The notes beneath the pieces are model-generated. The model was given only the letters and a program-made list of their open reading frames with translations. It did no database searches and was not told the origin of the DNA. A DNA stretch of 32,000 nucleotides from Desulfotalea psychrophila LSv54 (GTDB lineage Bacteria > Desulfobacterota > Desulfobulbia > Desulfobulbales > Desulfocapsaceae), in contig NC_006138.1 of NCBI RefSeq assembly GCF_000025945.1, positions 2,160,001-2,192,000 on the forward strand, given 5' to 3'. The position numbers and the translations under genes were made by a program. Positions 513 through 23,186 of the stretch are shown here, piece by piece (the first letter of the stretch is position 1; each line of letters begins with the position of its first letter).

Positions 513-662
513 GGAGTTTACGCTTACCCGGAGTCTACGCTTACCCGGAGTCTACGCTTACCTGGAGTCTACCTTTGGTCGCTTTGACGGAGTCTCGTTG
601 CACTTGCTTTGACGAAGTCTCCCTTTGGTCGCTTTGACGGAGTCTCCCGTTGGTCGCTTACC
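513..662 (+). repeat. Compound tandem array: 3 x 17 nt then 4 x about 25 nt, every unit starting GGAGTCT/GGAGTTT/GAAGTCT
   Basis: Units counted directly: 513-529, 530-546 and 547-563 (ggagtYtacgcttaccY); then 564-588, 589-613, 614-638 and 639-662 (ggagtct...ggtcgctttgac type). Confidence 0.9.
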
Positions 663-4004: not shown

Positions 4005-4103
4005 TATTAGCTGTCAGGAACAGCAACTACATTTACCACAGAGATACGGAGAACACAGAGAAAGAGTGAGGGAATGACGGCTACGAGAAAGAGCAAGGAC
4101 AGC
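4005..4103 (+). repeat. Purine-rich mosaic dispersed repeat
   Basis: It contains agctgtcag (4009-4017), atttaccacagagatacggagaacacagagaaag (from 4031) and ctacgagaaagagcaagg. The same words occur at 7746-8070. Confidence 0.75.
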
Positions 4104-4340: not shown

Positions 4341-5084
4341 ATGAGCGAATATGTCATCGGAGGATGGACTCAAAATTTGACAGTAGAACCACCGGTAACC
4401 TTTTCTTATAGTATATATGGAATGATCACCAACTTTATTGCCTTGACGTCAGGCACGCCGGATTACCCTGGCTGGAGTGTTGCTGCGACGCCTGCTCCCA
4501 AGGTGTCTGGCAAAGTGCTTTGGGCATATGGTGGGCTGGGCGGCACGCCGACGGGAACTCCCTTTAATCAAACTGATATTGAGGCGATTATTTCTGCCAC
4601 AACATCTCAGGATTGGGCGGGAGTTGATGTTGATAACGAAAGCGAAATGAACATCGATAATGTAATTAATATGATGTCCAGTTTGAAAAAGAGCGACAGA
4701 GAGACCAGTTACACCTTTATTGCCGGTTGGGACTACAACCATCCTGAGTCTGAGCCGGGGGCAACGATAAATAGGGAGGTTAAGGCAATAGCGGATTCAG
4801 GTGCCTGTGATCGTTTCTGCCTCATGTGTTATGGCGATGCTATGTGGCCTTTGAGTGATATTACGGCAAACGTCGGTCCTGCAATTGACCGAACCATTGC
4901 CCATGCCGGAGACCCGAAAAAGGTGATTCTCGCCTTGACTCCTGCTGGCCTAAATTCCGAGAACCTTGCCTATTTTCTTGATCAGGTAACGAGTAAGGGT
5001 ATTGGAGGACTTTTTATCTGGGAATTCTCAACACTTCAGGCAGCTGACCTGCAAACCATTCAGGATGCACTGGCTATTTCCTGA
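4341..5084 (+). CDS. Small GH18-like (chitinase/hevamine-type TIM-barrel) protein, function unknown
   Basis: 247-aa ORF with GGAGAG 8-13 nt upstream of the ATG. The motif AGVDVDNE fits the GH18 DxxDxDxE catalytic signature, and C-terminal GGLFIWEFS resembles the GH18 GGxMxWe strand. There is no obvious signal peptide. Confidence 0.5.
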   Translation: MSEYVIGGWTQNLTVEPPVTFSYSIYGMITNFIALTSGTPDYPGWSVAATPAPKVSGKVLWAYGGLGGTPTGTPFNQTDIEAIISATTSQDWAGVDVDNESEMNIDNVINMMSSLKKSDRETSYTFIAGWDYNHPESEPGATINREVKAIADSGACDRFCLMCYGDAMWPLSDITANVGPAIDRTIAHAGDPKKVILALTPAGLNSENLAYFLDQVTSKGIGGLFIWEFSTLQAADLQTIQDALAIS

Positions 5085-5171: not shown

Positions 5172-6686
5172 CTATCCCATGTTCATAGTACCGTCCCAGG
5201 TATCTACCTTGGCCGTTGTCTTGGCCTTGGAGAACCAGGTACTTGTCACCGTTTTCTGTTCTGTATAAAAGCGGAAACCATCCTGGCCCATGGTGTGAAG
5301 ATCACCATAGAATGATTTCTTCTGACCGGTGAAGCCAAAAATACCCACAGGCACAGGAATACCCACATTGATTCCCACCATACCGCCATCGGTCTGGGCC
5401 ACAAAGTTTCTGGCATGAAAGCCACTCTCGGTATAAATTACCGAACCATTGGCATATGGATTGGCATTCATAAGGGCAATGCCCTCAGCAAAATCTTTTA
5501 CCCGTTTTACTGAAAGAACGGGGCCAAAAATTTCTTCGCTGCCAATACTCATTTCAGGGGTCACATTGTCAAAGATGGTAGGCCCTATAAAATAGCCATT
5601 TTCGCATCCTGCAGCCACTACAGGTCTGCGACCATCAAGGACAAGATCAGCACCCTCTGTAATTCCCCTTGCAATCCAGTCAAGAATACTTTTTTTATGA
5701 CCTGCATTGACTATTGGGCCCATCCCTGTTTCAGGAAGCCATGCCTTACCCATGGTCAGTTTTTTGGCGTGGTAGGTAATACGCTCAACCAGCTTATCGG
5801 CAATGCTTTCTTGAACAACGATGACAGGAAGAGCCATACAACGGGCACCTGCGCAGCCGCAGAAGGCATTGATGATTCCCTGGGCAGTACGCTCAAGGTT
5901 ACAATCCTCAAGAACAAGAGCATGGTTTTTGGCGGCACAGAGGGCCTGAACGCGTTTACCGTTAGCAGTCGCTGTTTCATAGATATGCCGGCCCACAGTT
6001 GTCGAACCCACAAAAGAGACGCCCTTAATCTCTGGATGACGTAGTAAAATTTCAGCCTCGGTTCGGTTGGCTGTAACCAGATTGAGCACCCCAGGTGGAA
6101 GCCCTGCCTCCTGCCAAAGTTCCATAAGCCGCATAGCGGTACGGGGCACATAACTTGCGGCCTTTAAAACCATGGTGTTGCCTGTGACCATACAGATAGG
6201 TGCCATCCAACCATGGGGAATCATGGCAGGGAAATTCCACGGAACAATACCTGCAAAGACACCCAGAGGACGCATCTGTTGAACAGTATCATAACCATTA
6301 CTCACATTAAAAAGAGAAGGCCCCTTCATAAGATGAGGCGCACCACAGGCAAATTCTATTACCTCATTTACCTTCAGGACATCGCCCATACTCTCTGCTC
6401 TGTTTTTGCCCTGCTCCCGACACAAGATATCGGTAAGCTCTTCGAGGTGTTGATCAACCAGCATCTTCATCCGAAAGAAAATCTGCACCCTCTTTCCCAC
6501 AGGTGTTGCAGCCCATCCAGGATAGGCGGCAGCCGCTGAAGCAATGGCCTCTTCCACCTCTTCTGCCGTACAATGAGCAACCTGGGCCGTCACCTCACCT
6601 GTTGAAGGATTATAAAGATCGGCATAGGAAGTTGTTTTAGATCTGCGCCACTGATTATCCACCCAGTACTGTAATTTTTCTGCCAT
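5172..6686 (-). CDS. mmsA: CoA-acylating methylmalonate-semialdehyde dehydrogenase (aldehyde dehydrogenase superfamily)
   Basis: 504-aa ORF with an SD-like GGAGAGAGAG upstream. ALDH motifs are present: VGSTTVG, the catalytic Cys context CGCAGARCMA (MmsA-type AGxRCMA) and EEIFGPV. The N-terminal region is typical of MmsA/IolA. Confidence 0.85.
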   Translation of the reverse strand: MAEKLQYWVDNQWRRSKTTSYADLYNPSTGEVTAQVAHCTAEEVEEAIASAAAAYPGWAATPVGKRVQIFFRMKMLVDQHLEELTDILCREQGKNRAESMGDVLKVNEVIEFACGAPHLMKGPSLFNVSNGYDTVQQMRPLGVFAGIVPWNFPAMIPHGWMAPICMVTGNTMVLKAASYVPRTAMRLMELWQEAGLPPGVLNLVTANRTEAEILLRHPEIKGVSFVGSTTVGRHIYETATANGKRVQALCAAKNHALVLEDCNLERTAQGIINAFCGCAGARCMALPVIVVQESIADKLVERITYHAKKLTMGKAWLPETGMGPIVNAGHKKSILDWIARGITEGADLVLDGRRPVVAAGCENGYFIGPTIFDNVTPEMSIGSEEIFGPVLSVKRVKDFAEGIALMNANPYANGSVIYTESGFHARNFVAQTDGGMVGINVGIPVPVGIFGFTGQKKSFYGDLHTMGQDGFRFYTEQKTVTSTWFSKAKTTAKVDTWDGTMNMG

Positions 6687-6790
6687 GGTCTCTCTCTCCT
6701 ATAGGTATGATTTAAAAGTTTTCGAATAAATTTTCCGAGAAACATTCATAATAGCCTTATTGTTCTGTCAGGATCAGACAGGTTGGCCTC

Positions 6791-7606
6791 TTACTCCTTT
6801 TGCAGTGCTGAAGCCAAATAAGAGAAGACGGAAGGATCTTCCCCATTATCATTGATGGGTACAAGAGCTGCCTTTCTGCTCAAGCGCAGAAGGCCTGCCC
6901 CAACATCTTCAACATCTTCAAGCATTGCTATAGCCGCTCCAGCAGGATCACCTGCCTTCATGGCCCTATAAATTTTTTTATGGGCCATAATGACATTGCC
7001 GGCAAATTCGCGATCAACATTTATAATGGCCTTAATTTGAGAGAGCAGATCTTCCACAAAGCTGAGAGTAAAGGCGATGAGGGGGTTACCGGATGCCTTG
7101 CCTATCTCTTTATGAAAGAGAACCGCGTAATCATCTACCTCATTAAAATCACCTTTCTTAAAGGCCTTTTCACTGGCCATATTAAGCCCTTTAAGGCGGG
7201 CAAGAAGTTCTGCTGTTATATTCTCTGCTGCGGCCCTTGCCGCAAGAGGTTCCAGGGCAATACGCATTTCAGAGAGATGTTCCGGCGAGAGTTGCTGGAA
7301 GCAAAAGAAGTTAAAGAGGAGGTCATGGGCCATCTTTTCAGAAACCCGACAAATATAAACACCGCCTCCTGGCCCCTTCTTCCTTGTGACCAGACCCATA
7401 TATTCCAGAGCATTAATGGTTTCCCGCAGGGTTTGTTTGCTTACTTCAAAAAGCTCGGAAAGATCTTTTTCAGAGCCAAGAAAAGTTCCCGGTTGAAGAT
7501 CACCCTTTAAGATACCCCTGCGAATTTGCCGGATGATTTTATCCGTTGATTTTTCACTTTTTACTGAAGAAAGGCCATCAATCCCTGAACTCATCATTAT
7601 CACCAT
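6791..7606 (-). CDS. GntR-family transcriptional regulator (FadR/FCD subfamily)
   Basis: N-terminal winged-HTH: GSEKDLSELFEVSKQTLRETINALEYMGLVTRKKGPGGGVYI. The C-terminal domain is helical and FCD-like. The start is ambiguous: 7606, or 7597/7594, which are better spaced from AAGGA. Confidence 0.85.
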   Translation of the reverse strand: MVIMMSSGIDGLSSVKSEKSTDKIIRQIRRGILKGDLQPGTFLGSEKDLSELFEVSKQTLRETINALEYMGLVTRKKGPGGGVYICRVSEKMAHDLLFNFFCFQQLSPEHLSEMRIALEPLAARAAAENITAELLARLKGLNMASEKAFKKGDFNEVDDYAVLFHKEIGKASGNPLIAFTLSFVEDLLSQIKAIINVDREFAGNVIMAHKKIYRAMKAGDPAGAAIAMLEDVEDVGAGLLRLSRKAALVPINDNGEDPSVFSYLASALQKE

Positions 7607-7745: not shown

Positions 7746-8070
7746 AGCTGTCAGTTTTTAGCTATCAGTTGTCAGAAACTGCATTTACCACAGAGGACAC
7801 AGAGGACACGGAGAAAGGAAAGTAAAAAAAGATGCGAGAAAAAACAGATGCTAGATACGAGATGGTGAGATACTAGAAAGAGCAAGGAAAAGATATTTAC
7901 CACGGCTACAGAGGACACGGAGAAAAAACAGCAGTGAAGCGGAGCGGAATGGTGGGGGGAAGATACGAGATGCGAGATACTAGAAAGGGCCGGGGAAAGA
8001 CATTTACCACAGAGATCACGGAGAGCACAGAGCGCACAGAGGATTGAGAAAAATAAGCTGTCAGAAAAGC
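7746..8070 (+). repeat. Largest copy of the purine-rich mosaic dispersed repeat (multiple reiterated words)
   Basis: agctgtcag occurs at 7746 and 8056. atttaccac(a/g)g occurs at 7783, 7895 and 8002, each followed by agaggacacggagaa-type words. cagtgaagcggagcggaatgg is at 7931-7951, and gatgctagatacgagatg/gatacgagatgcgagatactagaaag words are present. The ORF 7906-8145(-) lies wholly inside it and is judged spurious. Confidence 0.85.
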
Positions 8071-8262
8071 ACCTGTAGCGACCCCATCATTTTTTAAGGG
8101 AAATTCCAACAGTGACAAGTTGTTGAGGGAATATACGTTAGGCATAATTTGATATTGGCCATTGTTTTATGTGGTTAGCTGCTGTATACCTTGATGAATA
8201 GAAGTAGTTGATATTTCAGTGAAAACACCAATCACCACTGTTAGATTTTTGAGAGGAAATTT

Positions 8263-9429
8263 ATGGAAAACTTAAAACAACTTTTGAGCTCGCAAAGTAG
8301 GCAAAATTGGCTTTTTGGGGCAGGTATAAGTTACGGTTCGAAAATACCCTTAATGTATCCTCTAACAGATCGTGTTGAGAAAATTGTTGAAGATATCGCA
8401 GGTGACGAGGAAAAAGCAATATTGGCATCATTAAAAGCAGATCTCAACGATGACTGCCATGTAGAGCATTATCTGAGTCATTTGGGAGACCTGCTGGCTA
8501 TTGCCGAACGCTCCAAGGATAAGATTGCACATATTGGTGGAAATTGCTATTCGGTAGAACATCTCAATAAACTGTATTTAGAAATTATCAAAGCCATTGG
8601 TGGAATCGTCAGATATGGGTATGTTGCCGCAAATGCTGAGCGTGGTCTAGAGGAAGAAATTGGTACAGCTGAAGGACCTATTGTCGAAATAAAACCACAT
8701 TATGAATTTGTTGAAGCACTATTGCTGAGCCAGTCTAACCTTGAGCGCCGTTCAAAAACAACATTCTTTACCACTAATTATGATACATTGCTCGAAGATG
8801 CTTTAGCTCTACATAAAAAGGCTGTATGTGATGGTTTTTCAGGTGGAGCGGTAGGTTTTTGGAATGCGGAAAAAGAGTTTTCTGATATCTCAATAGATTC
8901 TAACACCTACCAATTATATAAATTGCATGGATCAATAGATTGGCATCGAGATGAGAGTTTCGGTCTAGTACGTGCACGGTATGGGACAAAGTATTTGTCA
9001 AATCTTGCAAATATTATGATTTATCCTCAAGCGACAAAGTATGTAGAAACTCAAAAAGACCCCTTTGCCAATCTATTCATGGGATTAAGAAAGACCCTGA
9101 TGAACAAGCAGCAAAATACACTACTTACTTGTGGTTACAGTTTCGGCGATGACCACATCAATGCCGAAATAGAAAGCGCATTGAAAAGTGAAGGGAACCA
9201 GACGACTGTTATCGCTTTTATTCAAGAGGCACCTAAGGATGGCATCGTAATCAATAAGACATTAGATGGTTGGTTGAACTGTCCTAAAATAGGTAAAAAG
9301 GTTTATGTAGCTGGTGAATCCGGTATTTATCATGCTTCGACAACGCCGTCAGCTGAAACTGATACATCCAAATATAATTGGTGGCGTTTTGATGTTCTGA
9401 CTCAGTTTATTAAGACAGGGGAAGTATAA
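8263..9429 (+). CDS. SIR2-like NADase (SIR2_2 defence-type sirtuin family), first gene of a SIR2-HerA pair
   Basis: 388-aa ORF with GAGAGGA upstream of the ATG. Ordered motifs are LFGAGIS (G19-S23), FFTTNYD (N172 at nt 8776-8778) and YKLHGS (H222 at nt 8926-8928), as in bacterial SIR2_2 domains. Its stop overlaps the next start (TAATG at 9427-9431). Confidence 0.8.
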   Translation: MENLKQLLSSQSRQNWLFGAGISYGSKIPLMYPLTDRVEKIVEDIAGDEEKAILASLKADLNDDCHVEHYLSHLGDLLAIAERSKDKIAHIGGNCYSVEHLNKLYLEIIKAIGGIVRYGYVAANAERGLEEEIGTAEGPIVEIKPHYEFVEALLLSQSNLERRSKTTFFTTNYDTLLEDALALHKKAVCDGFSGGAVGFWNAEKEFSDISIDSNTYQLYKLHGSIDWHRDESFGLVRARYGTKYLSNLANIMIYPQATKYVETQKDPFANLFMGLRKTLMNKQQNTLLTCGYSFGDDHINAEIESALKSEGNQTTVIAFIQEAPKDGIVINKTLDGWLNCPKIGKKVYVAGESGIYHASTTPSAETDTSKYNWWRFDVLTQFIKTGEV

Positions 9430-11270
9430 TGAGTGATATTTTTCAGGTGAGACAGGAATTAAAGATTGGAAAAATCATCGAGGTGTCTGGCAATAATTTA
9501 CGTATAGAAATTGATGATAGTCTTAACGAGTTAATACGTATAGTTGATGGTCAGGTTTATCCTGTAGGTCAAATGGGCAGTATTATTAAAGTTCATTTTG
9601 GTAGGAAACTATTGTTTGCTTTTGTTCGATCGCTTAAGATGAGATCAGAATTGATTGCTGATGACAATAATCAGCCAATTAATGCCGCAGATGATGCCCG
9701 TATTTTAGAAGCAGATTTGTTTGGCCAAGGAACGTGGTCTGCTAGTAATTTACGTCTAGAATTCTCCCGTGGTGTAGAAACCTACCCTTTACCTTTACAA
9801 TGTGCTTATACTTGTCTTAACGATGAGTTGGAAGCAGTTTATAAAGCTGCAGAGTCAAACGCTCAAGATGAAGCCATTAGCCCAATGGTTCCAATTGGAA
9901 AATATATCGGGGGTAATAATGCTGTTTGCAGAGCAAATATAGATAAATTGTTTGGACATCATTTTGCAATTTTGGGTTCTACAGGATCTGGTAAATCAGC
10001 TACTGTTGCATCTATTTTACATTCTGTTTTAGACCACAGGCCTAATGATATCGTGCTAAAACCTAGAATTGTTATGATTGATCCTCATGGCGAATATGCT
10101 AGTGCTTTTGGTGGAAGAGCAAAAGTATATCGAGCATATAATGATTCATCTATTGCAAATAATGATGCAGAGATATTGAAATTACCCTATTGGCTTATGT
10201 CCAGTGATGAATTGAGATCTTTAATCATCGGGAAAACTGAGCACGAAGCCACATCTCAGAATAATATTGTCTATGAAGCAATTGCTTATTCTAGATTATT
10301 GGAAGCTAGTCTAATTCAAGATGTGGGCGCTGAACCAAATGGTGGATATGAAGCTGGTCGGGTTATTGGTATCACTGAAGAACAAGTTTTAAATTTTGAT
10401 AGAGATAAGCCAGTTCCATTTAAATTAGCTCAGTTCGTAAAACACATAGATAAGGTACAAGGACGTAAGGCTGGGAAACAGGATAACTTGGCTGCATCTT
10501 CAGGTCGCGACAAAGTTGAAAACATACTTAAGAAACTTAAAGTCCTTCGTTCGAATCCTCAACTAAATTTCTTGTTGGAGGAATATGATGAGAATGCTTC
10601 CCCTAAATTACAGGAAATATTAGCACAGTTCGTAGGTGAAGCAGGCGGAAAAGACATACGTATAATTGACATTTCTGGTCTTCCAAATGAAGTTGCCGGT
10701 CCTTTAACAGCATTGATCTCACGCCTTTTGTTTCAATATAAGCTTTGGCAAACAAGAGAAGAGAGAGAAAAAGATCCTATGTTGTTTGTATGCGAAGAAG
10801 CCCATCGTTATGTGCCTAATCATGGTGAGGCTCAATATAAGGAGGCTCAAGATGCAATTCGACGTATTGCCAAGGAAGGTCGTAAATATGGATTGGGTTT
10901 AGGGCTAATATCTCAAAGGCCTTCTGATGTAGAAAGCACCGTTCTTTCACAGTGTAACTCTTGGATTGTTCTTAGATTGTCTAATTCTAGTGACCAAGAG
11001 CATGTATCAAAGTTCTTACCAGATAGTTTAAATGGTTTAACCAAAATGCTATCCGCTCTTACAAGGCGTGAAGCGATTTTTGTAGGTGAGGCAGCGGCAC
11101 TTCCCAGTAGAATTCGGATTCGAAAATTATCGCCAGAGCAATTACCTGATTCTAACGATATAAAATTTGCCCAAGGCTGGTCTAATGATGCGATCAATGA
11201 TGCCGATCTGAAGGCCATTGTAAATCGTTGGAGCAATACAGAAGATCATCAAGCGCAAGCAGATAGTTAA
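9429..11270 (+). CDS. herA: HerA-like (DUF87/FtsK-HerA superfamily) P-loop ATPase, second gene of a SIR2-HerA pair
   Basis: 613-aa ORF. The N-terminal region (KIGKIIEVSGNNLRIEI...GSIIKV) looks like a HerA barrel. Walker A GSTGSGKS lies at aa 183-190 (nt 9975-9998), and the Walker B strand MLFVCEEAH at aa 451-459. ISQRPSD and SWIVLRL sensor-like motifs are typical of HerA/DUF87. It is translationally coupled to the SIR2 gene. Confidence 0.85.
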   Translation: MSDIFQVRQELKIGKIIEVSGNNLRIEIDDSLNELIRIVDGQVYPVGQMGSIIKVHFGRKLLFAFVRSLKMRSELIADDNNQPINAADDARILEADLFGQGTWSASNLRLEFSRGVETYPLPLQCAYTCLNDELEAVYKAAESNAQDEAISPMVPIGKYIGGNNAVCRANIDKLFGHHFAILGSTGSGKSATVASILHSVLDHRPNDIVLKPRIVMIDPHGEYASAFGGRAKVYRAYNDSSIANNDAEILKLPYWLMSSDELRSLIIGKTEHEATSQNNIVYEAIAYSRLLEASLIQDVGAEPNGGYEAGRVIGITEEQVLNFDRDKPVPFKLAQFVKHIDKVQGRKAGKQDNLAASSGRDKVENILKKLKVLRSNPQLNFLLEEYDENASPKLQEILAQFVGEAGGKDIRIIDISGLPNEVAGPLTALISRLLFQYKLWQTREEREKDPMLFVCEEAHRYVPNHGEAQYKEAQDAIRRIAKEGRKYGLGLGLISQRPSDVESTVLSQCNSWIVLRLSNSSDQEHVSKFLPDSLNGLTKMLSALTRREAIFVGEAAALPSRIRIRKLSPEQLPDSNDIKFAQGWSNDAINDADLKAIVNRWSNTEDHQAQADS

Positions 11271-11352
11271 TGACTGCCACCAAATATTAATACGTAAAAC
11301 AATCTTTCGCTAACTTATTTACTGAAATAGGTGGCCTTGTTGCATAAATCAT

Positions 11353-11376
11353 GAGGGAAGAAAATCATCTTCCCTC
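11353..11376 (+). terminator. Perfect 9-bp hairpin downstream of herA (candidate operon terminator)
   Basis: GAGGGAAGA (11353-11361), loop aaatca, then TCTTCCCTC (11368-11376). It lies 83 nt after the herA stop. It is not followed by a U-tract, so intrinsic-terminator status is uncertain. Confidence 0.4.
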
Positions 11377-11918
11377 TACTCCATTCCATCTTAGCAAACA
11401 GCCTCTCGAACAGGCATTTCTAAAGCGCTAATCTTGTTCAAAGCTTTAATCACAACGGACTTACCTGCTTGACCGTTGATGATATCCTGTTCCTTTCAAT
11501 TCACCTTAACTGTTTGGGCACGCCTGCTAACAGGTGTATCAAGAGCCCAGGGATCGATGACATCAGGTCAAAAATTGAATTTAGAAAACCTTCAGCAGCT
11601 CTGAGAAAAAGACCGTAAATGGTTCCATCAAACAAATCATGCATCATCAGTGTGCTTGTGGCTACGATCACGCTGTCCTGATGTACCAACTTTCAATCGC
11701 TTTCTTGTCCACCCAAAACGTCAACGCCGTTGCTTTAGCGCTCTGTTGTATTCAGGCCAATTTGTGCAACAAGGCCAAAATAGGTTAGAAAAACATTGAT
11801 GGTTATCTCGAGATATTCGGTTTGAAAAATATTTAATAAATCATTGCACTGGGCCAAGCACTCGTCATGCTCTCAATTTACCGCAAAGTACGGTGCTAAC
11901 ACTCCACTGCTTCCTGTT

Positions 11919-12012
11919 GTTTCTGATAGCTGATAACTGACAGCTTAAAGCTACCCTCTCTCTCAGCTGTAGGCCCTGTTTTTTCTAGCATCTAGCATCT
12001 CGTATCTTTCCC
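11919..12012 (-). repeat. Mosaic dispersed repeat, inverted orientation
   Basis: The reverse complement of 11919-11945 is agctgtcagttatcagctatcagaaac, which matches 7746-7779. The reverse complement of 11984-12012 is gggaaagatacgagatgctagatgctaga, which matches the gatacgagatgctaga words. Confidence 0.75.
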
Positions 12013-12021
12013 TTGTCTCTT

Positions 12022-12102
12022 CAGTGGAATAGATGATATTATGGCCCTGTAAGGATGGACCTTGTATTCCACATTAAGTCTTAGATATGGTAATAAGAGG
12101 AG
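12022..12102 (+). repeat. Conserved element of about 80 nt, copy A (cagtgRaa...tatggccctgtaaggat...ttagata...ataagagga)
   Basis: It aligns without gaps to 13924-14003 at roughly three quarters identity by eye, including the identical 18-mer ttatggccctgtaaggat. Confidence 0.75.
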
Positions 12103-13879: not shown

Positions 13880-14003
13880 TGTTGCTGACAGCTGTCCTTT
13901 CTCTCATCAAATTTTCCACAGTTCAGTGAAACAGATGCTCTTATGGCCCTGTAAGGATTGGTCTTATGTTCCGTGTTACGCTTTAGATACGGGGATAAGA
14001 GGA
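13880..14003 (+). repeat. Repeat composite: ctgacagctgtc module (13885-13896) plus the roughly 80-nt conserved element, copy B (13924-14003)
   Basis: The module order is the same as at 11919-12102: an inverted agctgtcag word followed by the cagtgaaa...tatggccctgtaaggat...ataagagga element. Confidence 0.7.
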
Positions 14004-14583: not shown

Positions 14584-15084
14584 TTGGTTAAGCCAATCGG
14601 GGTCTCCACTCAGTTTGTCATTCTTGATGGCATTGTCTGGAACCTGCTTGATGAGAGGGTGGTGGTGGAGAATAGTGCACACAAAAGCGGCTACTCAAGT
14701 CCCAACGCCTATCTCAATAAGAGTGGCGGAAAGTATGCAAAAAATATCGTCCATCCCCTCAACTATAGCTTTGTTTTTGTGTTGGCAATGATTGTAGGCG
14801 CTTTTGTTGCCCGGAAAATGCAACATAGAGAGGAGAAAGCAAAAATAATAACCGTCCCAACAGTTTGTCTGCGAAGATTTGGCAGTTCTTCGCCTAAAAG
14901 ATATCTGGTAACCTTTCTGGGAGGTCTCTTCGTCCTCTTTGGCTCACGTCTTGCAGGTGGCTGTACCAGTGGTCATATGATGAGTGGTATGATGCAGACC
15001 TCTCTTAGTGGCTATCTCTTTGCTCTGGGTGCCTTTGCCGTGGCCATCCCCATGGCCATTCTTATCTATGGAAGGGAGGAGTAA
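14584..15084 (+). CDS. YeeE/YedE-family sulfur-compound transporter component (Sulf_transp/DUF395), N-terminal half-protein; 5-prime end uncertain
   Basis: Hydrophobic ORF with the family signature GGCTSGH. The track start is a TTG. The frame is open back to 14491, and an out-of-frame ATG at 14501 suggests a frameshifted or misassembled true start (see findings). Confidence 0.7.
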   Translation: MVKPIGVSTQFVILDGIVWNLLDERVVVENSAHKSGYSSPNAYLNKSGGKYAKNIVHPLNYSFVFVLAMIVGAFVARKMQHREEKAKIITVPTVCLRRFGSSSPKRYLVTFLGGLFVLFGSRLAGGCTSGHMMSGMMQTSLSGYLFALGAFAVAIPMAILIYGREE

Positions 15085-15085
15085 T

Positions 15086-15652
15086 ATGTCTATTGTCCTT
15101 GCGATTGTCTTAGGCTTGTTCTTTGGCTTTGTCCTGCAAAAGATAGGTGCGGCAGATCCACAAATTATCATTGATATGTTACGCCTTAAAAACCTTCACC
15201 TAATGAAGGCCATTCTCCTTGCCATTGGCCTCAGTAGTTTAGCCTTATTTTCTTTGCTTAATCTTGGCTTTATCGACATGGGAAATCTAAGTGTAAAGGC
15301 CTCTTATGTAGGGGTAATTGTTGGTGGTGCCATTATGGGCTTGGGTTGGGCCATTTCTGGATTTTGTCCAGGAACGGGTCTTGCCGCCCTTGGCACTGGC
15401 CGCAAAGATGCCCTGTTTTTTGTTTTAGGCGGCCTCGTTGGCGCTCAGCTTTTCACCCTTGTTTACGCGGCACTAAAAGGCACTTTTTTATTTAAAAGTT
15501 TAGGTGGCAAAATGACCTTGGCTGCAACGGGTAATAACGCCTTACAAACATTCTTTCCATCAATTTCAGCCGTTCTTGTTGCCGGGGCTATTGCCATTAT
15601 TCTTATACTGATTGCCTGGAAACTGCCAGAAAAGCAGGGGGATAATTTTTAG
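15086..15652 (+). CDS. YeeE/YedE-family sulfur-compound transporter component, second half-protein
   Basis: An ATG at 15086 lies 1 nt after the upstream stop and is preceded by GGAGGAG. The protein is polytopic with the GFCPGTG signature typical of the second Sulf_transp repeat. The track start at 15008 overlaps the upstream gene and is rejected. Confidence 0.75.
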   Translation: MSIVLAIVLGLFFGFVLQKIGAADPQIIIDMLRLKNLHLMKAILLAIGLSSLALFSLLNLGFIDMGNLSVKASYVGVIVGGAIMGLGWAISGFCPGTGLAALGTGRKDALFFVLGGLVGAQLFTLVYAALKGTFLFKSLGGKMTLAATGNNALQTFFPSISAVLVAGAIAIILILIAWKLPEKQGDNF

Positions 15653-16616: not shown

Positions 16617-16752
16617 TTTGTCCTACAGGGGTAGTTCTACTGTCCCAATCATGGTCTGGATGAAAGGGTCCTCCTCGTTTAAGAGAGGCCATGACATCAG
16701 TTGTTCTTTCAGCATATCTATATAGTTTTTTTAAGTTGTGAAGAGTTTAAAA

Positions 16753-19700
16753 ATGAATTTTTTTTTAAGAAGTATCCTCCACTTTTTCTATCCTTGCCTG
16801 CTCATTGCCCTCTTGTGGGCGACGCCATCATTTGCCGCTGAAATCCAAAAAGAGCCAGATAGCCGTCAGGTTCTTATCGTTCAATCCGGTTATGAAGGTT
16901 ATCCATGGACAGATTCGCAAAATAAGGGCATTCAAGATGTTTTTTCTGCTGCCCCCCAACCAACCGATTTCTTTTTTGAGTATATTGACACCAAAAGAAA
17001 TCACGGCAAAGCCTATTTAAAAAATTTACAAAAATTCTGGGAAATTAAATATCGTAACCAGCAAATTGATCTTATTATTACCTGCGATAATCAGGCCTAT
17101 GAATTTATCATTAAAAATAGAATCTCTCTATTTCAAAATATCCCTCTGGTCTTTGCCGGGATGAATAAATTTAAGCCCGCTATGTTGAGGGGAAAGAGGC
17201 TGGTCACGGGGGTCACCGAAGAAAACGATCTTGAGGCAACCATTGACATTGCCCTTCGTCTTCATCCAAAGACTAAAAAGCTTGTCTTTATCATCCCTGG
17301 TGCTCAGCCGTATCGTTTGCAGTGGTTTAAAGATCTTCCCGTTCGCTATAGAGAAGAGGTAGAACAGATAATTATCACGGCAAGAGAGCTGGATGAAATT
17401 GATCGAGAGCTTGACAGTCTTGGCCCAAACTTGGTCGCCATTCTTCTCAACAGTGTCGTTGTCAGAGACGGCATTTATATGTCCTTTGAAAAATTTGTTA
17501 TCCATCTGGCAACAAATAGGCCATTTCCCCTCTATACACTCTGGGATAATACCCTAGGCCAGGGTATTGTTGGTGGTAAGTTAATAAGAGGAGAGTTACA
17601 GGGACGTAAGGCGGCTGAACTGGCATTGAAGATTTTACGGGGCATCCCTGTCGCGGAATTGCCCATTCTTGAGAAAATTCCAAATCAGTATATGTTTGAT
17701 TGGCACCAATTACAGAGATTTAACATTGATATAAGTGATCTGCCTGCGGAGGCAGTTGTCGTTAATAGACCTATCTCCTTTTATGCTCAAAATAAGCGAT
17801 TGGTGCAGGTGACCCTGAGCGGCATTTTTCTTCTCCTCCTTTTGGTTATTTCCCTTGCCACAGCGGTTATTAATCTGAAAAAAGCGCAGAAGAAGGTGTT
17901 TCTCTCCGATGATATATTGGAACAGATGCCTGAAGCCATCGTTCTTACAGGTATGGATGGAAATATTGAAAAGTGGCTTGGCAGGGCAGAGGAGATCTTT
18001 GGTTACTCTGAGAGTGACTGCCTTGGTCGTGCCCTGGCCTTTAATCAGTCCTCGGAACTTAATATAACGGAGCAGATAGAGGCAGGTATTGAGAAGAGTA
18101 GTAGGTTTCTGGGTGAGATAGCCTGTCTGAGAAAGGATGGTACCTCAGTTCCCATTGAGGTAACGTCTACAAGGGCTTTTTCCAGATCTGGAATAGCGGT
18201 GGGTACCATTAGTATCCTTCAGGATATCAGCGAACGAAGAGAGGCTAAGGAGTCCCTACGGGCAAGTGAGGACCGGTTTAGAAAGATGATAGCAAAATCA
18301 CCGATGCCCACCATGCTCACCAATCAAAACTATGACATTGCTTTTGTTAACGATAAATTCACAGAACTCTTTGGCTACAGACTAGAAGATATAGAAACAG
18401 GAAGAAAATGGTGGAAGAGCGCCTATCCAGATGCAAATTATCGAAGACGTGCTGAGGAAGGTTGGCGGGTTGCCATAAAAAAAATGCTTGCCGGTGATGC
18501 AGATATGGCAAGGCAGGAGTGGGATCTGACCGTAAAGGATGGTAGTGTACGTAGATGTGAATTTTATATGGTGCCCATAGAGGATTTATCACTGGTCATT
18601 GTCAATGATATTTCTCAACGCGTACGTGAGGCCAGTGAGAAAAATAAACTTGAATTACGCCTGCGGCAAGCGCAGAAGATGGAGGCTATTGGTGCTCTGG
18701 CCGGGGGCATTGCCCATGATTTTAATAATATTCTGGCTGTAATTCTTGGTTATGCAGAGCTTGCCAAAGATGAAATCCCGGCAAACTCGATAATAGGTGA
18801 AGATCTGGATCAGGTTATTGAGGGGGGTAATCGGGCTAAAGAGTTGGTAAAACAAATTCTTGCCTTTAGTCGTCAGGAGAAGGTGAAGCGTCTCCCCTTG
18901 CAGGTTCAGGTGCTTCTGAAAGAGACAATGAGAATGCTCAGGCCCTCCCTCCCCTCTACCATAGAGATCCAGACGGAAATAGATCCCCTATGTGGCTTTG
19001 TCCTGGCCGATCCAACTCAAGTGCATCAAATTATAATGAATCTCTGCACCAATGCCAACCATGCCATGGAAAAATCGGGGGGGAGGCTTGATATTGAGCT
19101 GAAGAGAATCTCTGTTGATGAGGGAAACAGGCATAAATACTCATCTCTTGTGCCGGGTGATTATGTTGTCTTGGTTGTCGCCGATACAGGGGAGGGCATA
19201 GCCCCCCATAATATTGGTAAAATATTTGAGCCATATTTTACCACTAAAGAGATTGGTAAGGGTACGGGAATGGGGCTTGCCACCATTCATGGGATTATCC
19301 GTGAGTATGGCGGGATAATAGATGTTGCAAGTGATCCTGAGCACGGATCTGTCTTTAGTGTGTTTTTTCCAGTAATTACTACAGAGAAAGTAGTTGCTGA
19401 TACTGTTGCTCAGGATTCTCCTCAGGACAGGGGCAGGATACTTCTGGTGGATGATGAAAAGCTACTGCTTACGGTGATCCAAAAGGTTTTGGCACGACTT
19501 GACTATAGGGTAACGACAAAAAGCAGCAGCTTGGAGGCATTGACCATCTTTAAAGAGAGTCCGGATGCATTCGATGCGATTATTACCGATCAAACCATGC
19601 CTGACATGGTCGGCTCAGATCTCGCTCAGGAAATTTTAAAAATCAGAGCTGATATTCCCATCATTCTCTGTACAGGATACAGTGATCAATTTGATGCGGA

Positions 19701-19797
19701 CCGGGTTCACTCTCTTGGCATTAGGGAGTTTGCCCTTAAGCCCCTAACCAAGGGCACCCTGGCCCATTTACTCTCCAGAGTGCTCGGCGATTATTAG
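16753..19797 (+). CDS. Hybrid sensor histidine kinase/response regulator, paralog 1 (periplasmic solute-binding-like domain, TM, 2 PAS, HisKA, HATPase_c, REC)
   Basis: I prefer the ATG at 16753 (MNFF..., conserved in all three paralogs) over the GTG at 16738. The N-terminus has a signal/TM segment followed by VLIVQSGYEGYPWTD, resembling the ABC_sub_bind-type periplasmic domain. A second TM (IFLLLLLVISLATAV) is followed by two PAS-like segments. The H-box is GGIAHDFNNIL, with an N-box NLCTNANHAM and a G-box DTGEGI...GKGTGMGL. The REC domain has LLVDDE and ITDQTMPDM. Confidence 0.9.
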   Translation: MNFFLRSILHFFYPCLLIALLWATPSFAAEIQKEPDSRQVLIVQSGYEGYPWTDSQNKGIQDVFSAAPQPTDFFFEYIDTKRNHGKAYLKNLQKFWEIKYRNQQIDLIITCDNQAYEFIIKNRISLFQNIPLVFAGMNKFKPAMLRGKRLVTGVTEENDLEATIDIALRLHPKTKKLVFIIPGAQPYRLQWFKDLPVRYREEVEQIIITARELDEIDRELDSLGPNLVAILLNSVVVRDGIYMSFEKFVIHLATNRPFPLYTLWDNTLGQGIVGGKLIRGELQGRKAAELALKILRGIPVAELPILEKIPNQYMFDWHQLQRFNIDISDLPAEAVVVNRPISFYAQNKRLVQVTLSGIFLLLLLVISLATAVINLKKAQKKVFLSDDILEQMPEAIVLTGMDGNIEKWLGRAEEIFGYSESDCLGRALAFNQSSELNITEQIEAGIEKSSRFLGEIACLRKDGTSVPIEVTSTRAFSRSGIAVGTISILQDISERREAKESLRASEDRFRKMIAKSPMPTMLTNQNYDIAFVNDKFTELFGYRLEDIETGRKWWKSAYPDANYRRRAEEGWRVAIKKMLAGDADMARQEWDLTVKDGSVRRCEFYMVPIEDLSLVIVNDISQRVREASEKNKLELRLRQAQKMEAIGALAGGIAHDFNNILAVILGYAELAKDEIPANSIIGEDLDQVIEGGNRAKELVKQILAFSRQEKVKRLPLQVQVLLKETMRMLRPSLPSTIEIQTEIDPLCGFVLADPTQVHQIIMNLCTNANHAMEKSGGRLDIELKRISVDEGNRHKYSSLVPGDYVVLVVADTGEGIAPHNIGKIFEPYFTTKEIGKGTGMGLATIHGIIREYGGIIDVASDPEHGSVFSVFFPVITTEKVVADTVAQDSPQDRGRILLVDDEKLLLTVIQKVLARLDYRVTTKSSSLEALTIFKESPDAFDAIITDQTMPDMVGSDLAQEILKIRADIPIILCTGYSDQFDADRVHSLGIREFALKPLTKGTLAHLLSRVLGDY

Positions 19798-19989: not shown

Positions 19990-20129
19990 TTGATGAAATG
20001 AATTTTCTGGATTGTCTCCGTATTAGTTAGAATAGGATTTTTAGGACTTTTCTTGGGAAAGGCTCTAAATTCTGTTTAAAGTCAGTTGCAGGCTTAACGT
20101 ATATTTTTTAAGTTGTGAGGCATTTGGGA

Positions 20130-23100: not shown

Positions 23101-23186
23101 GCATTAGAGAATTTGTCCTTAAGCCTCTGACTAAGGTCACCCTCGCTAATCTTCTTTCCGGGGTTCTAGGTGGTCAGCAGGAATGA
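20130..23186 (+). CDS. Hybrid sensor histidine kinase/response regulator, paralog 2
   Basis: It has the same domain order and motifs as paralog 1. I prefer the ATG at 20130 (MNFIS...) over the GTG at 20115. Its C-terminal half is nearly identical to paralog 3. Confidence 0.9.
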   Translation: MNFISRCVFKNKFPFFHLCLLIAFFLPSLPLLSAFPQKEVHNRQILIIQAGYEGYPWTDSQHKGIQDVFSSVPEPTDLFFEYIDSKRNHGVTYFKNLQKFWEIKYSNQHIDLIITCDNQAYEFFLKNRSALFQDTPLVFAGVNRFDSASLKGKKLITGIVEENDLEATVEIALHLHPRTKKIVFIIPGAQSYRLQWVKDLPARYREEVEQVILTVKELGEIDRELDALGPDIIAILLHNVVSRDGIYMPVQKFVVHLAENRPFPIYALWDSTLGRGIVGGKLVNGELQGREVAKLALKILRGTSVSELPVIEIPNQYMFDWQQLQRFNVDLSDLPAEAVVINRPISFYVQNKRLVQMTLSGISLLLLLVIFLTTALIYLKKAQNKVLLSDEILEQMPEAIVLTDLDGNIEKWLGRAEEIFGYSESECLGRVLAFNQPLELNITEQIEAGLKEKGRFLGEISCLRKDGRAVPIEVTATRVFSRSGIVVGTISILQDITERRRAKEFLRVSEVRFRKMVAKSPMPTILTDQNQDLIFVNDKFTELFGYRLEDIDTEKKWWESAYPDANYRKMVKNIWRIAIKRAVADDRDIEVQEWDLTTRDGRVSRCEFYMVPIEEQSLIVINDISQRIRDASEKNKLEMQLQQAQKMEAIGTLAGGIAHDFNNILAVILGYAELAKDEVPANSVIEKDLDQVIVGGNRAKELVKQILAFSRQEKVERLPMKVQVLLKEAMRMLRPSLPSTIEIQTEIDPLCGFILADPTQVHQIIMNLCTNANHAMDKSGGRLHIELKRISIDEENEHSSLRSGDYVVLVVADTGKGIAPDNIGKIFEPYFTTKEIGKGTGMGLATIHGIIREYGGRIDVVSVPGHGAAFSVYFPVITAVETTENAVIKETPQGSGRILLIDDEELLLTVGKKVLERLGYRVTTKSSSLEALAIFKERPDAFDAIITDQTMPDMFGSDLAQEILKIRADIPIILCTGYSDQFDTDMAHSLGIREFVLKPLTKVTLANLLSGVLGGQQE

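What the first reader, a model, noticed from the sequence alone, without database searches (positions are those of the whole stretch)
8263..11270. SIR2-like NADase plus HerA-like ATPase: a two-gene anti-phage (NAD+ depletion) cassette
Seen in sequence: a 388-aa protein carries the ordered GAGIS / TTNYD / KLHGS signature of bacterial SIR2_2 domains. Its stop overlaps (TAATG) the start of a 613-aa protein that has a HerA-type N-terminal barrel region, Walker A GSTGSGKS and Walker B-like LFVCEEAH. Established knowledge: this gene order and these sizes match the SIR2-HerA defence system, in which a HerA hexamer scaffolds SIR2 subunits and phage infection triggers NAD+ hydrolysis and abortive infection. 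Neither neighbour (GntR/mmsA upstream, racemase downstream) has any functional link to the pair, so it looks like an accessory insertion. The family is already described. What would be new is an uncharacterised instance in this (probably anaerobic, sulfur-cycling) lineage and whatever triggers it.
Basis: partly seen in the sequence, partly recalled or inferred. Interest (0 to 1): 0.8.

Follow-up and report, generated by a model that had tools for sequence, protein, structure and literature searches.

The report
SIR2-HerA anti-phage cassette, horizontally acquired
Two overlapping genes in the cold-loving sulfate reducer Desulfotalea psychrophila are an intact copy of the known SIR2-HerA anti-phage system, which kills infected cells by destroying NAD+; the pair was imported from marine Gammaproteobacteria, so this is a well-supported but ordinary new instance.

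Summary

Both proteins match SIR2-HerA defence profiles over their full length (PADLOC SIR2 2e-120, HerA 4.9e-150; Pfam SIR2_2 and DUF87). N172/D174/H222 and K189 align with the mutationally tested catalytic residues of the Paenibacillus system. AlphaFold models find SIR2-HerA complex subunits as their best PDB matches.

The genome is Desulfotalea psychrophila LSv54, but the closest relatives (80-89% aa, 78% nt) are Gammaproteobacteria. Similarity stops at the cassette edges. Cassette GC is about 0.39 in every host, although flank GC ranges from 0.35 to 0.65. dN/dS is 0.03-0.07. Five GntR-anchored relatives lack the pair.

So this is a horizontally acquired, selectively maintained two-gene defence module. 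It belongs to a clade that is catalogued but, as far as I could find, untested, and it is only about 20-30% identical to the solved systems.

Local peculiarities are a 7-codon N-terminal deletion in SIR2, a decayed IS5-family element 62 nt downstream, and host intergenic repeats flanking the cassette in inverted orientation.

Verdict: a new member of a known kind, with modest interest (0.25).

The parts
8245..8262 (+). Retained ribosome-binding region of the imported cassette (TTTTTGAGAGGAAATTT before the ATG).
   Evidence: It aligns with ATTGA(A)GAGAAACTT upstream of the ATG in the gammaproteobacterial loci L005, L012, L013, L004 and L010. Further upstream the window shares nothing with them, although L005, L012 and L013 share about 70 nt with each other.
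8263..9429 (+). SIR2-family NADase effector gene, 388 aa. It has the Rossmann motif GAGIS (19-23) and catalytic N172/D174 (TTNYD) and H222 (KLHGS). There is no zinc-binding CxxC module.
   Evidence: Pfam SIR2_2 3.2e-24. PADLOC SIR2 PDLC04088 2e-120, profile positions 14-387 of 390. PDB phmmer hit 8w9l 9.2e-18, with N172/D174/H222 aligned to N163/D165/H212 (PMC11472057). AF2 pLDDT 81, pTM 0.81. Foldseek 8wld 3.5e-16, TM 0.65-0.75. It departs from only 4 of the columns that are at least 90% conserved. No CxxC motif.
8263..8270 (+). Scar of a 21-nt in-frame deletion, ATG GAA|AAC. Relatives read ATGGAA-GAATTTGATAAYAGAT-TGGAAAAC. The deletion lies between two TGGAA direct repeats and removes ancestral residues 2-8 (EEFDNRL), including a nearly invariant Phe.
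   Evidence: DNA alignment A2. Close homologs are 396 aa against 388 aa here. The window has gaps at the M and F columns, which are 98% conserved.
9429..11270 (+). HerA-family ATPase gene, 613 aa. It has an N-terminal beta-barrel (about residues 12-128) and a RecA-like core with Walker A GSTGSGKS (K189), Walker B LFVCEEAH (E456/E457) and SQRPSD. The helical insert spans about 260-400. The C-terminal tail diverges after NRW.
   Evidence: Pfam DUF87 1.5e-29. PADLOC HerA PDLC04105 4.9e-150, profile positions 1-573 of 576. PDB hit 8wiv 1.9e-70 over residues 12-273 and 363-603. AF2 pLDDT 72, with residues 12-128 all beta. Foldseek 8wld_L 3e-30. Only 2 conservative departures at conserved columns. 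C-terminal tail.
8245..11231 (+). Extent of the horizontally acquired segment, meaning the stretch with DNA similarity to gammaproteobacterial SIR2-HerA cassettes.
   Evidence: blastn gives 77-79% identity over 8264-11231 to L001-L006 and nothing in the flanks. The RBS extends this to about 8245. GC is 0.387 and GC3 0.25-0.32, against 0.44-0.45 and 0.39-0.47 in neighbouring genes.

Best explanation
This is a functional two-gene SIR2-HerA abortive-infection defence system that Desulfotalea psychrophila acquired by horizontal transfer.

Shown here: an operon of a SIR2_2 protein and a HerA ATPase with translationally coupled (overlapping) genes, intact catalytic and nucleotide-binding residues, strict SIR2-then-HerA pairing in all relatives, strong purifying selection, foreign composition, and patchy distribution.

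Inferred from characterised homologues (Paenibacillus, E. coli Nezha, S. aureus, V. cholerae, E. coli type III): HerA forms a hexameric ring whose N-terminal barrels dock an oligomer of SIR2. SIR2 alone is auto-inhibited, and complex formation makes it NADase-competent. Physiological ATP bound to HerA keeps the NADase, and any DNA-directed activity, silent. Phage infection lifts the block, either through an ATP drop, through end-exposed DNA, or through a phage protein such as an SSB. SIR2 (N172/D174/H222) then hydrolyses NAD+ to ADP-ribose and nicotinamide. The infected cell stops growing and phage replication aborts.

The trigger for this clade is unknown.
For: - Family membership by sequence: (full-length PADLOC SIR2 2e-120, HerA 4.9e-150).
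- Membership by solved relatives. Catalytic N/D/H and the Walker A Lys align with residues whose mutation abolishes defence in Paenibacillus (PMC11472057), S. aureus (PMC11514289) and V. cholerae (PMC11559045).
- Membership by fold.
- Operon coupling.
- Pairing: HerA lies immediately downstream of SIR2 in all 13 related loci that carry SIR2.
- Selection: dN/dS 0.03-0.07 for both genes. Only 4 (SIR2) and 2 (HerA) departures at columns that are at least 90% conserved.
- Accessory and mobile nature: the nearest relatives are Gammaproteobacteria. Homology is confined to the cassette. Cassette GC is 0.39-0.40 in hosts whose flanks range from 0.35 to 0.65. The pair is absent next to GntR in five relatives. 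More distant relatives (40%/52% identity) sit in a P4-like satellite defence hotspot in E. coli and on IMG/VR viral contigs.
- NAD+ depletion and abortive infection for SIR2-HerA: bioRxiv 10.1101/2021.12.14.472415. ATP gating and phage SSB triggers: PMC13434337.
Against: - No experiment exists for this protein pair or, as far as the held literature shows, for its clade.
- It is only about 20% (SIR2) and 19-30% (HerA) identical to the solved systems, and it scores far below the NCBIfam anti-phage equivalog cut-offs (58.9 vs 500; 292.6 vs 850). Details such as stoichiometry, nuclease or nickase activity and trigger may therefore differ.
- HerA lacks most of the roughly 120-residue C-terminal arm that stabilises the Paenibacillus HerA spiral (PMC11472057).
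- The D. psychrophila SIR2 has lost 7 N-terminal residues, including a nearly invariant Phe, and does not share the roughly 70 nt of upstream sequence that L005/L012/L013 share with each other.
- No convincing sigma-70-like promoter was found just upstream.
- There are no other defence genes in the window.
Confidence: 0.85

Rival explanations
1. It is a SIR2-HerA system, but wired like the E. coli 'type III' subtype rather than Nezha. In that model the system is quiescent until a phage protein such as an SSB remodels the complex. A HerA-associated nickase then makes DNA ends, these ends drive ATP consumption, and only then is the NADase released. This is a mechanistic variant of the best explanation, not an exclusive alternative.
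For: Sir2-HerA subtypes that are 13-22% identical to each other differ in trigger and catalytic repertoire (PMC13434337). This clade is equally distant from Nezha (19-21% identity). It also lacks the Paenibacillus C-terminal arm.
Against: No sequence of types I-III was available for comparison. The best sequence and fold matches are to the Paenibacillus system, for which NADase, nuclease, ATPase and helicase activities were reported on complex formation.
Confidence: 0.25
2. It is a decaying or silent relic. The cassette was imported without its own promoter, and SIR2 then suffered an N-terminal deletion, so the pair no longer defends.
For: There is a 21-nt deletion removing residues 2-8, including a Phe that is 98% conserved. 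The upstream sequence shared by the gammaproteobacterial copies is missing. No promoter-like site lies within about 600 nt upstream on the + strand. A degenerate IS element sits next door.
Against: Both ORFs (388 and 613 codons) are uninterrupted, although their AT-rich sequence would accumulate stop codons quickly. The deletion is in frame and keeps the RBS and the ATG. Every catalytic or nucleotide-binding motif and nearly every conserved column is intact. The simple promoter scan is not informative for this organism.
Confidence: 0.1
3. It has a housekeeping role: an NAD-dependent protein deacylase (the name NCBI gives the SIR2 protein) working with a HerA DNA-repair helicase.
For: NCBI names the protein 'SIR2 family NAD-dependent protein deacylase'. 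HerA was first known from archaeal HerA-NurA end resection. Weak NCBIfam hits to helicase_HerA were found (127.8 bits).
Against: Only SIR2_2 (PF13289) is hit, not the canonical sirtuin family, and there is no Cys4 zinc module. No NurA, Mre11 or Rad50 genes are nearby. The helicase_HerA score is far below its cut-off of 970. The best structural neighbours are all defence complexes. The foreign, patchy and mobile distribution is not that of a housekeeping gene.
Confidence: 0.03

Closest known systems
Paenibacillus sp. 453MF SIR2-HerA (original Gao et al. 2020 system; PDB 8W9L, 8WIV, 8WLD; PMC11472057)
   Same: It has the same gene order and the same two-domain logic, and it is the best PDB match for both proteins by sequence (9.2e-18 and 1.9e-70) and by fold. 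The catalytic N-x-D...H residues have the same spacing (N163/D165/H212 against N172/D174/H222). The Walker A sequence GSTGSGKS is identical. The HerA N-terminal barrel aligns from residue 12.
   Different: Identity is only about 21% (SIR2) and 28-30% (HerA) in structure-based alignment. HerA here is 613 aa against 696 aa and lacks most of the C-terminal arm (aa 576-696) that stabilises the split-spiral hexamer. The HerA residues reported to bind SIR2 (F39, Y60) are not conserved (I38 and R59 here, read from the alignment). Scores fall below the NCBIfam equivalog cut-offs.
E. coli Nezha (Sir2-HerA cluster 1; PDB 8J4U, 8SU9 and others) and V. cholerae classical-biotype Nezha (PMC11559045)
   Same: These are SIR2 plus HerA two-gene abortive-infection systems. 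The model matches their folds (SIR2 TM about 0.6; HerA E about 1e-20). Mutations of the active-site Asn and His abolish defence.
   Different: They are more distant than the Paenibacillus system (SIR2 3.4e-09, HerA 1.8e-31 by sequence; 19-22% identity). The Asn-His spacing differs: 59 residues in V. cholerae against 50 here.
E. coli Sir2-HerA types I-III (PMC13434337, 2026)
   Same: That paper shows that Sir2-HerA is a family of diverged subtypes with different spectra and triggers. The clade studied here is another such subtype.
   Different: No mapping is possible because no sequences were available. Only 1 of 5426 complete E. coli genomes has any DNA similarity to the window cassette. That one genome carries a 40%/52%-identical pair in a P4-like satellite hotspot.
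DUF4297-HerA defence system (PDB 8XAU, 8ZIQ, 9C1M)
   Same: Its HerA is almost as similar to this HerA as the Paenibacillus one is (about 1e-60 to 1e-66).
   Different: The effector partner there is a DUF4297 nuclease. Here it is a SIR2 NADase.
Other SIR2 NADase defence effectors (ThsA of Thoeris, DSR2, SIR2-pAgo/SPARSA)
   Same: They share the SIR2 catalytic fold and NAD+ depletion as the outcome. They appear as the next tier of fold matches (about 5e-07).
   Different: They use different sensor or partner modules (SLOG, a tail-tube-binding C-terminal domain, pAgo) and have no HerA.

Membership tests
SIR2-HerA anti-phage defence system | A protein with a SIR2_2-type (PF13289) domain. | tested here: met
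   Pfam SIR2_2 3.2e-24, 86.1 bits against a cut-off of 24.5. PADLOC SIR2 PDLC04088 2e-120, full length.
SIR2-HerA anti-phage defence system | Conserved NADase catalytic Asn(/Asp) and His. | tested here: met
   N172/D174/H222 align with N163/D165/H212 of PaSIR2 (PMC11472057). They are invariant in 45 homologs. Their spatial proximity in the model was not measured.
SIR2-HerA anti-phage defence system | A HerA/DUF87 ATPase with an N-terminal beta-barrel and Walker A and B motifs. | tested here: met
   DUF87 1.5e-29. PADLOC HerA PDLC04105 4.9e-150. Alignment to PaHerA from residue 12. K189 and E456/E457 are invariant. Residues 12-128 are all beta in the model.
SIR2-HerA anti-phage defence system | The two genes are adjacent and co-oriented in one operon, and this pairing is conserved in relatives. 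| tested here: met
   One-base overlap TAATG. HerA lies directly downstream of SIR2 in all 13 related loci that carry SIR2.
SIR2-HerA anti-phage defence system | Fold of both subunits like that of solved SIR2-HerA complexes. | tested here: met
   For SIR2, the top 38 PDB hits are all SIR2 of SIR2-HerA complexes. For HerA, the top hits are 8wld/8wiv at E 3e-30. The HerA model is only moderate (pLDDT 72).
SIR2-HerA anti-phage defence system | Accessory, horizontally mobile distribution. | tested here: met
SIR2-HerA anti-phage defence system | SIR2 and HerA assemble into one complex. | not testable with these tools
   No multimer prediction is available. The interface residues known from PaHerA are not conserved, which is expected for co-evolving partners.
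SIR2-HerA anti-phage defence system | Protection against phage, with NAD+ depletion on infection. | not testable with these tools
   This needs an experiment. No paper on this instance was found.
NCBIfam equivalogs SIR2_antiphage (NF042942) and HerA_antiphage_2 (NF042944) | Score at or above the curated equivalog cut-off. | tested here: not met
   58.9 bits against 500, and 292.6 bits against 850. The pair is therefore not an ortholog of the curated reference systems but belongs to a different subfamily.
E. coli Sir2-HerA subtypes (Nezha, types I-III; PMC13434337) | At least 70% Sir2 identity to a cluster representative (the paper's CD-HIT criterion). | tested here: inconclusive
   The pair is not Nezha: about 20% identity to 8J4U chains. 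Sequences for types I-III are not held. The nearest E. coli pair found is 40%/52% identical.
Canonical sirtuin protein deacylase (the NCBI product name) | Pfam SIR2 (PF02146) domain with a Cys4 zinc-binding module. | tested here: not met
   Only SIR2_2 is hit. The protein has five Cys residues and no CxxC motif.
HerA-NurA DNA end-resection machinery | An adjacent NurA nuclease (with or without Mre11/Rad50), and a score above the helicase_HerA equivalog cut-off. | tested here: not met
   The neighbours are GntR, an aldehyde dehydrogenase and a racemase. NF040819 scores 127.8 against 970.

The most novel reading that the evidence does not exclude
The low-GC clade to which this pair belongs (SIR2 about 396 aa plus HerA about 607 aa) spreads as a bare two-gene cassette across Gammaproteobacteria, Bacteroidota and now Desulfobulbales. 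It may be a functionally distinct Sir2-HerA subtype with its own trigger and gating, for example a phage-protein-triggered, nickase-coupled mechanism like E. coli type III, or one that works without the C-terminal HerA arm. The D. psychrophila copy would then be a naturally cold-adapted, N-terminally shortened variant of that subtype.
Probability: 0.3. Interest if true: 0.45.

Novelty: new member of a known kind. Interest (0 to 1): 0.25.

Why it matters
- It adds a defence system to a model psychrophilic sulfate reducer, a lineage whose phage biology is almost unexplored.
- It documents a clean case of inter-phylum transfer of a minimal defence cassette. The boundaries sit at the RBS and at the last codons of herA, and the cassette keeps about 39% GC in hosts from 35% to 65% GC.
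- The clade is abundant in marine and enteric bacteria but appears untested. A representative would therefore be a reasonable candidate for the current effort to split Sir2-HerA into functional subtypes.
- None of this changes what is known about how SIR2-HerA works.

Tried and rejected
- The exact-protein look-up of the window SIR2 found no record. The organism was identified through homolog names instead.
- The genome-contig scan returned only 6 loci and did not return the source genome itself.
- Mapping to E. coli types I-III failed. The paper has no held supplements and its text gives no accessions (some searches were malformed queries).
- A clean 'empty site' (GntR next to the racemase) was not found. 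The region upstream of GntR differs in every relative, so the result is absence of the pair rather than a precise empty junction.
- I considered that the inverted repeats on both sides (7746-7986 and 11923-12022) might be terminal repeats of a transposon carrying the cassette. I rejected this as the main reading for two reasons. The same modules occur in other intergenic regions of the window. They are also absent from the gammaproteobacterial loci, whose homology stops at the cassette.
- I considered that the IS remnant might have delivered the cassette. This is unlikely, because the remnant has its own inverted repeats and its own target-site duplication entirely downstream of herA.
- Rfam and the tRNA scan found nothing. 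The promoter and terminator scan gave counts no higher than shuffled sequence.
- Plasmid and phage collections hold no close relative: 39% identity at best on plasmids, and only the core domain in phages. The IS remnant has no DNA match in PLSDB.
- No other defence gene is present in the window.
Full report
**1. Observation**

The SIR2 stop and the HerA start share one base (…GTATAATGAGT…).

GAGIS (residue 19), TTNYD (170; N172), KLHGS (220; H222), GSTGSGKS (183; K189) and LFVCEEAH (452) are all present.

The neighbours are an aldehyde dehydrogenase and a GntR/FCD regulator on the opposite strand, and an Asp/Glu racemase 889 nt downstream. None of the other ORFs I scanned against PADLOC, which were most of the window's larger ones, matches a PADLOC defence model. 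The pair is therefore an isolated insertion in a metabolic neighbourhood and not part of a defence island.

**2. What the proteins are**

*Profile matches.* Pfam gives SIR2_2 (3.2e-24) for the first protein and DUF87/'Helicase HerA central domain' (1.5e-29) for the second. PADLOC models match both proteins end to end: SIR2 PDLC04088 at 2e-120 (profile 14-387/390) and HerA PDLC04105 at 4.9e-150 (profile 1-573/576). NCBIfam's anti-phage equivalogs are hit but far below their cut-offs (58.9 vs 500; 292.6 vs 850). The pair therefore belongs to the SIR2-HerA family, but not to the orthologous groups built around the reference systems.

*Solved structures.* The best match for both proteins is the Paenibacillus sp. 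453MF system: 8W9L at 9.2e-18 and 8WIV at 1.9e-70 (PDB codes assigned in PMC11472057). Next for HerA come the HerA proteins of DUF4297-HerA systems. After those come E. coli Nezha (8J4U/8SU9) and S. aureus (8YHO/8YHX).

*Catalytic residues.* In the alignment, N172, D174 and H222 fall on N163, D165 and H212 of PaSIR2, the putative catalytic residues of that study. K189 falls in the identical Walker A motif that contains K173, whose mutation abolishes defence. Equivalent Asn and His residues are essential in S. aureus (H287) and V. cholerae (N168, H227).

*Structure models.* An AlphaFold2 model of SIR2 (pLDDT 81, pTM 0.81) finds only SIR2 subunits of the three solved SIR2-HerA complexes as its best 38 PDB matches (E down to 3.5e-16, TM 0.6-0.75). 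ThsA and DSR2 follow. A moderate HerA model (pLDDT 72; residues 12-128 all beta, consistent with the barrel) finds PaHerA first (3e-30), then DUF4297-associated HerAs, then Nezha HerA.

*Not a canonical sirtuin.* The protein has no CxxC zinc module and no hit to the canonical sirtuin Pfam family. The NCBI name 'NAD-dependent protein deacylase' is therefore a generic label.

**3. Where it comes from**

The exact proteins are annotated in Desulfotalea psychrophila (LSv54; 3.52-Mb contig). This species belongs to the Desulfobulbales, phylum Thermodesulfobacteriota.

The next-closest SIR2 (80-88%) and HerA (81-89%) sequences are, where named, from Gammaproteobacteria. They include Oceanimonas, Pseudoalteromonas, Vibrio, Shewanella, Aeromonas, Serratia, Proteus, Providencia, Pantoea and Marinomonas. 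Bacteroidota appear further out.

DNA identity to six such loci is 77-79% and runs from 8264 to 11231 only.

In those genomes the pair (SIR2 396 aa, HerA about 607 aa, 4-nt overlap) sits in unrelated contexts:
- beside a methyltransferase and ResIII pair and two large unknown proteins;
- after mukFEB;
- between a LacI-regulated sugar operon and a beta-lactamase gene in Serratia.

Cassette GC is 0.39-0.40 in all hosts, although flanking GC ranges from 0.35 (Pseudoalteromonas) to 0.65 (Serratia). In the window it is 0.387 against about 0.45, with GC3 of 0.25-0.32 against 0.39-0.47.

dN/dS against four relatives is 0.03-0.07 for both genes, with dS saturated.

Five contigs carrying GntR orthologs (57-74% identity) keep GntR, (Fe-ADH) and the aldehyde dehydrogenase. 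Each has different genes on the other side of GntR, and none has SIR2, HerA or the racemase.

More distant relatives (40%/52% identity) lie between the psu/ogr genes and the integrase of a P4-like satellite next to tRNA-Thr in E. coli 65COLEC, a typical satellite defence hotspot. Others lie on three IMG/VR viral contigs.

In every one of the 13 related loci that carry SIR2, HerA follows immediately.

Together these results show a self-contained, horizontally mobile, selectively maintained two-gene module.

**4. Local peculiarities**

(a) *N-terminal deletion in SIR2.* The homologs read …GAGAAACTT ATG GAA GAA TTT GAT AAY AGA TTG GAA AAC TTA…. The window reads …GAGGAAATTT ATG GAA AAC TTA…. This is a 21-nt in-frame deletion between two TGGAA repeats. 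It keeps the RBS and the ATG but removes residues 2-8, including a Phe conserved in 98% of relatives. Apart from that, SIR2 departs from conserved columns only at K346 (usually R) and V378 (usually G). HerA departs only at A191 and S240.

(b) *Missing flanking sequence.* About 70 nt upstream and about 80 nt downstream (with a hairpin) are shared by the Pseudoalteromonas, Oceanimonas and Serratia copies. Neither stretch is present in the window. The HerA C-terminal tail also diverges after NRW.

(c) *IS remnant.* A 446-bp element begins 62 nt downstream of herA. It is bounded by 18-nt inverted repeats (11332-11349 and 11760-11777) and by an AAATAGG(T) direct repeat. Its minus strand encodes a frameshifted IS5-family transposase N-terminus. 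The repaired translation scores 35.9 bits (E 1.1e-8) on PF13737, above that family's cut-off.

(d) *Inverted host repeats.* The left flank (7746-8050) holds about three roughly 105-nt periodic copies of a mosaic of short repeat modules. The right flank (11923-12056) holds one copy in inverted orientation. The same modules occur in other intergenic regions of the window and are absent from the GntR-anchored relatives L008 and L009. I therefore read them as a host intergenic repeat family. They are possibly recombination substrates, but not the ends of a cassette-specific element.

**5. Mechanism**

*Shown:* gene content, motifs, coupling, selection and mobility.

*Inferred from characterised systems:*
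- SIR2 alone is inactive or auto-inhibited.
- Binding to the HerA hexamer through the N-terminal barrels activates the NADase (PMC11472057; PMC11514289).
- ATP at physiological concentration inhibits the complex.
- Infection relieves this, passively through ATP loss in Nezha, or through phage SSB/gp5.9-triggered nicking and ATP consumption in E. coli type III.
- NAD+ is cleaved to ADPR and nicotinamide, and infection aborts.

Which trigger logic applies here cannot be decided from sequence. The clade is about as far from each characterised system as those systems are from each other.

**6. Comparison and novelty**

The pair passes every sequence and structure membership criterion for SIR2-HerA that could be tested. 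It fails only the equivalog cut-offs of the curated reference subfamilies.

It differs from its closest solved relative in three ways. HerA lacks most of the C-terminal arm. The SIR2-contact residues are not conserved. Identity is low (about 21% for SIR2, 28-30% for HerA).

The subfamily already has dedicated PADLOC models. No paper in the held library discusses the D. psychrophila genes, and I found no experiment on this clade.

I classify it as a new member of a known kind. I give 0.25.

Noticed in passing
window 7746-8050 (+) and 11923-12056 (inverted); also 1-400, 1076-1123, 4025-4099, 13922-13958: A mosaic of short intergenic repeat modules: GATACGAGATGCKAGATRCTAGAAA, AGCTGTCAGTTWTYAGCTATCAG, TTTACCACAGAGGACACRGAG and CAGTGAAGCGKAGCGGAATGG. 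The left flank of the cassette holds about three copies with a roughly 105-nt period. The right flank holds one copy in inverted orientation, so the cassette is bracketed by inverted repeats. The same modules occur in other intergenic regions of the window and are absent from the GntR-anchored relatives L008 and L009. They look like a host-specific REP/MITE-like family.
   Followed up: partly
window 11325-11785 (transposase remnant on the - strand): A decayed IS5-family (IS903-like) element of about 446 bp lies 62 nt downstream of herA. It has 18-nt inverted repeats (TGGCCTTGTTGCAYAAAT) at 11332-11349 and 11760-11777, and a flanking direct repeat AAATAGG(T) that is a likely target-site duplication. 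Inside is a frameshifted DDE_Tnp_1_5 N-terminus; the repaired translation scores 35.9 bits, E 1.1e-8.
   Followed up: yes
window 16738-19797, 20115-23186, 23538-26594 (+): Three tandem paralogous hybrid sensor kinases of about 1020 aa. All three have the same architecture: an ABC_sub_bind-like periplasmic domain, PAS domains, HisKA, HATPase_c and a receiver domain.
   Followed up: no
window 4341-5084 (+): A 247-aa ORF with no Pfam hit (E<=1e-4) and no PADLOC hit. It lies between the Kef-type Na_H_Exchanger/TrkA_N gene and the aldehyde dehydrogenase.
   Followed up: no
window 14584-15084 and 15008-15652 (+): Two overlapping ORFs each match a different part of the Sulf_transp (YeeE/YedE-like) profile: positions 225-306 and 10-150 of 310. 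They may be a two-part transporter gene pair or a frameshifted or rearranged gene.
   Followed up: no
window 513-659 and 1074-1133: Tandem repeats with periods of 17, 25 and 24 nt (GGAGTCTACGCTTACCC; GGCGGCAGTGAAGCGTAGCGGAAT) lie in a roughly 1.5-kb stretch with no ORF of at least 100 aa at the start of the window. They are related to the repeat modules that flank the cassette.
   Followed up: no
L007 (E. coli 65COLEC, NZ_CP070914.1 3654770-3657825): A SIR2 (385 aa) plus 'ATP-binding protein' (632 aa) pair is 40%/52% identical to the window pair. It sits between psu/ogr-delta and the integrase of a P4-like satellite integrated next to tRNA-Thr, a satellite defence hotspot. It was the only hit among 5426 complete E. 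coli genomes.
   Followed up: partly
L005 9910-9979 and 12991-13070; L012 and L013 equivalents: The gammaproteobacterial copies of the cassette share about 70 nt upstream of SIR2 and about 80 nt downstream of HerA, including a hairpin (GCAAAGC…GCTTTGC). These are possibly the native promoter and terminator of the mobile unit. Neither stretch is present in the window.
   Followed up: partly
window 5172-7606 compared with L008, L009, L019, L021: In four of the five relatives, an Fe-dependent alcohol dehydrogenase gene lies between GntR and the aldehyde dehydrogenase. In D. psychrophila the two are directly adjacent, so the ADH gene is missing.
   Followed up: no
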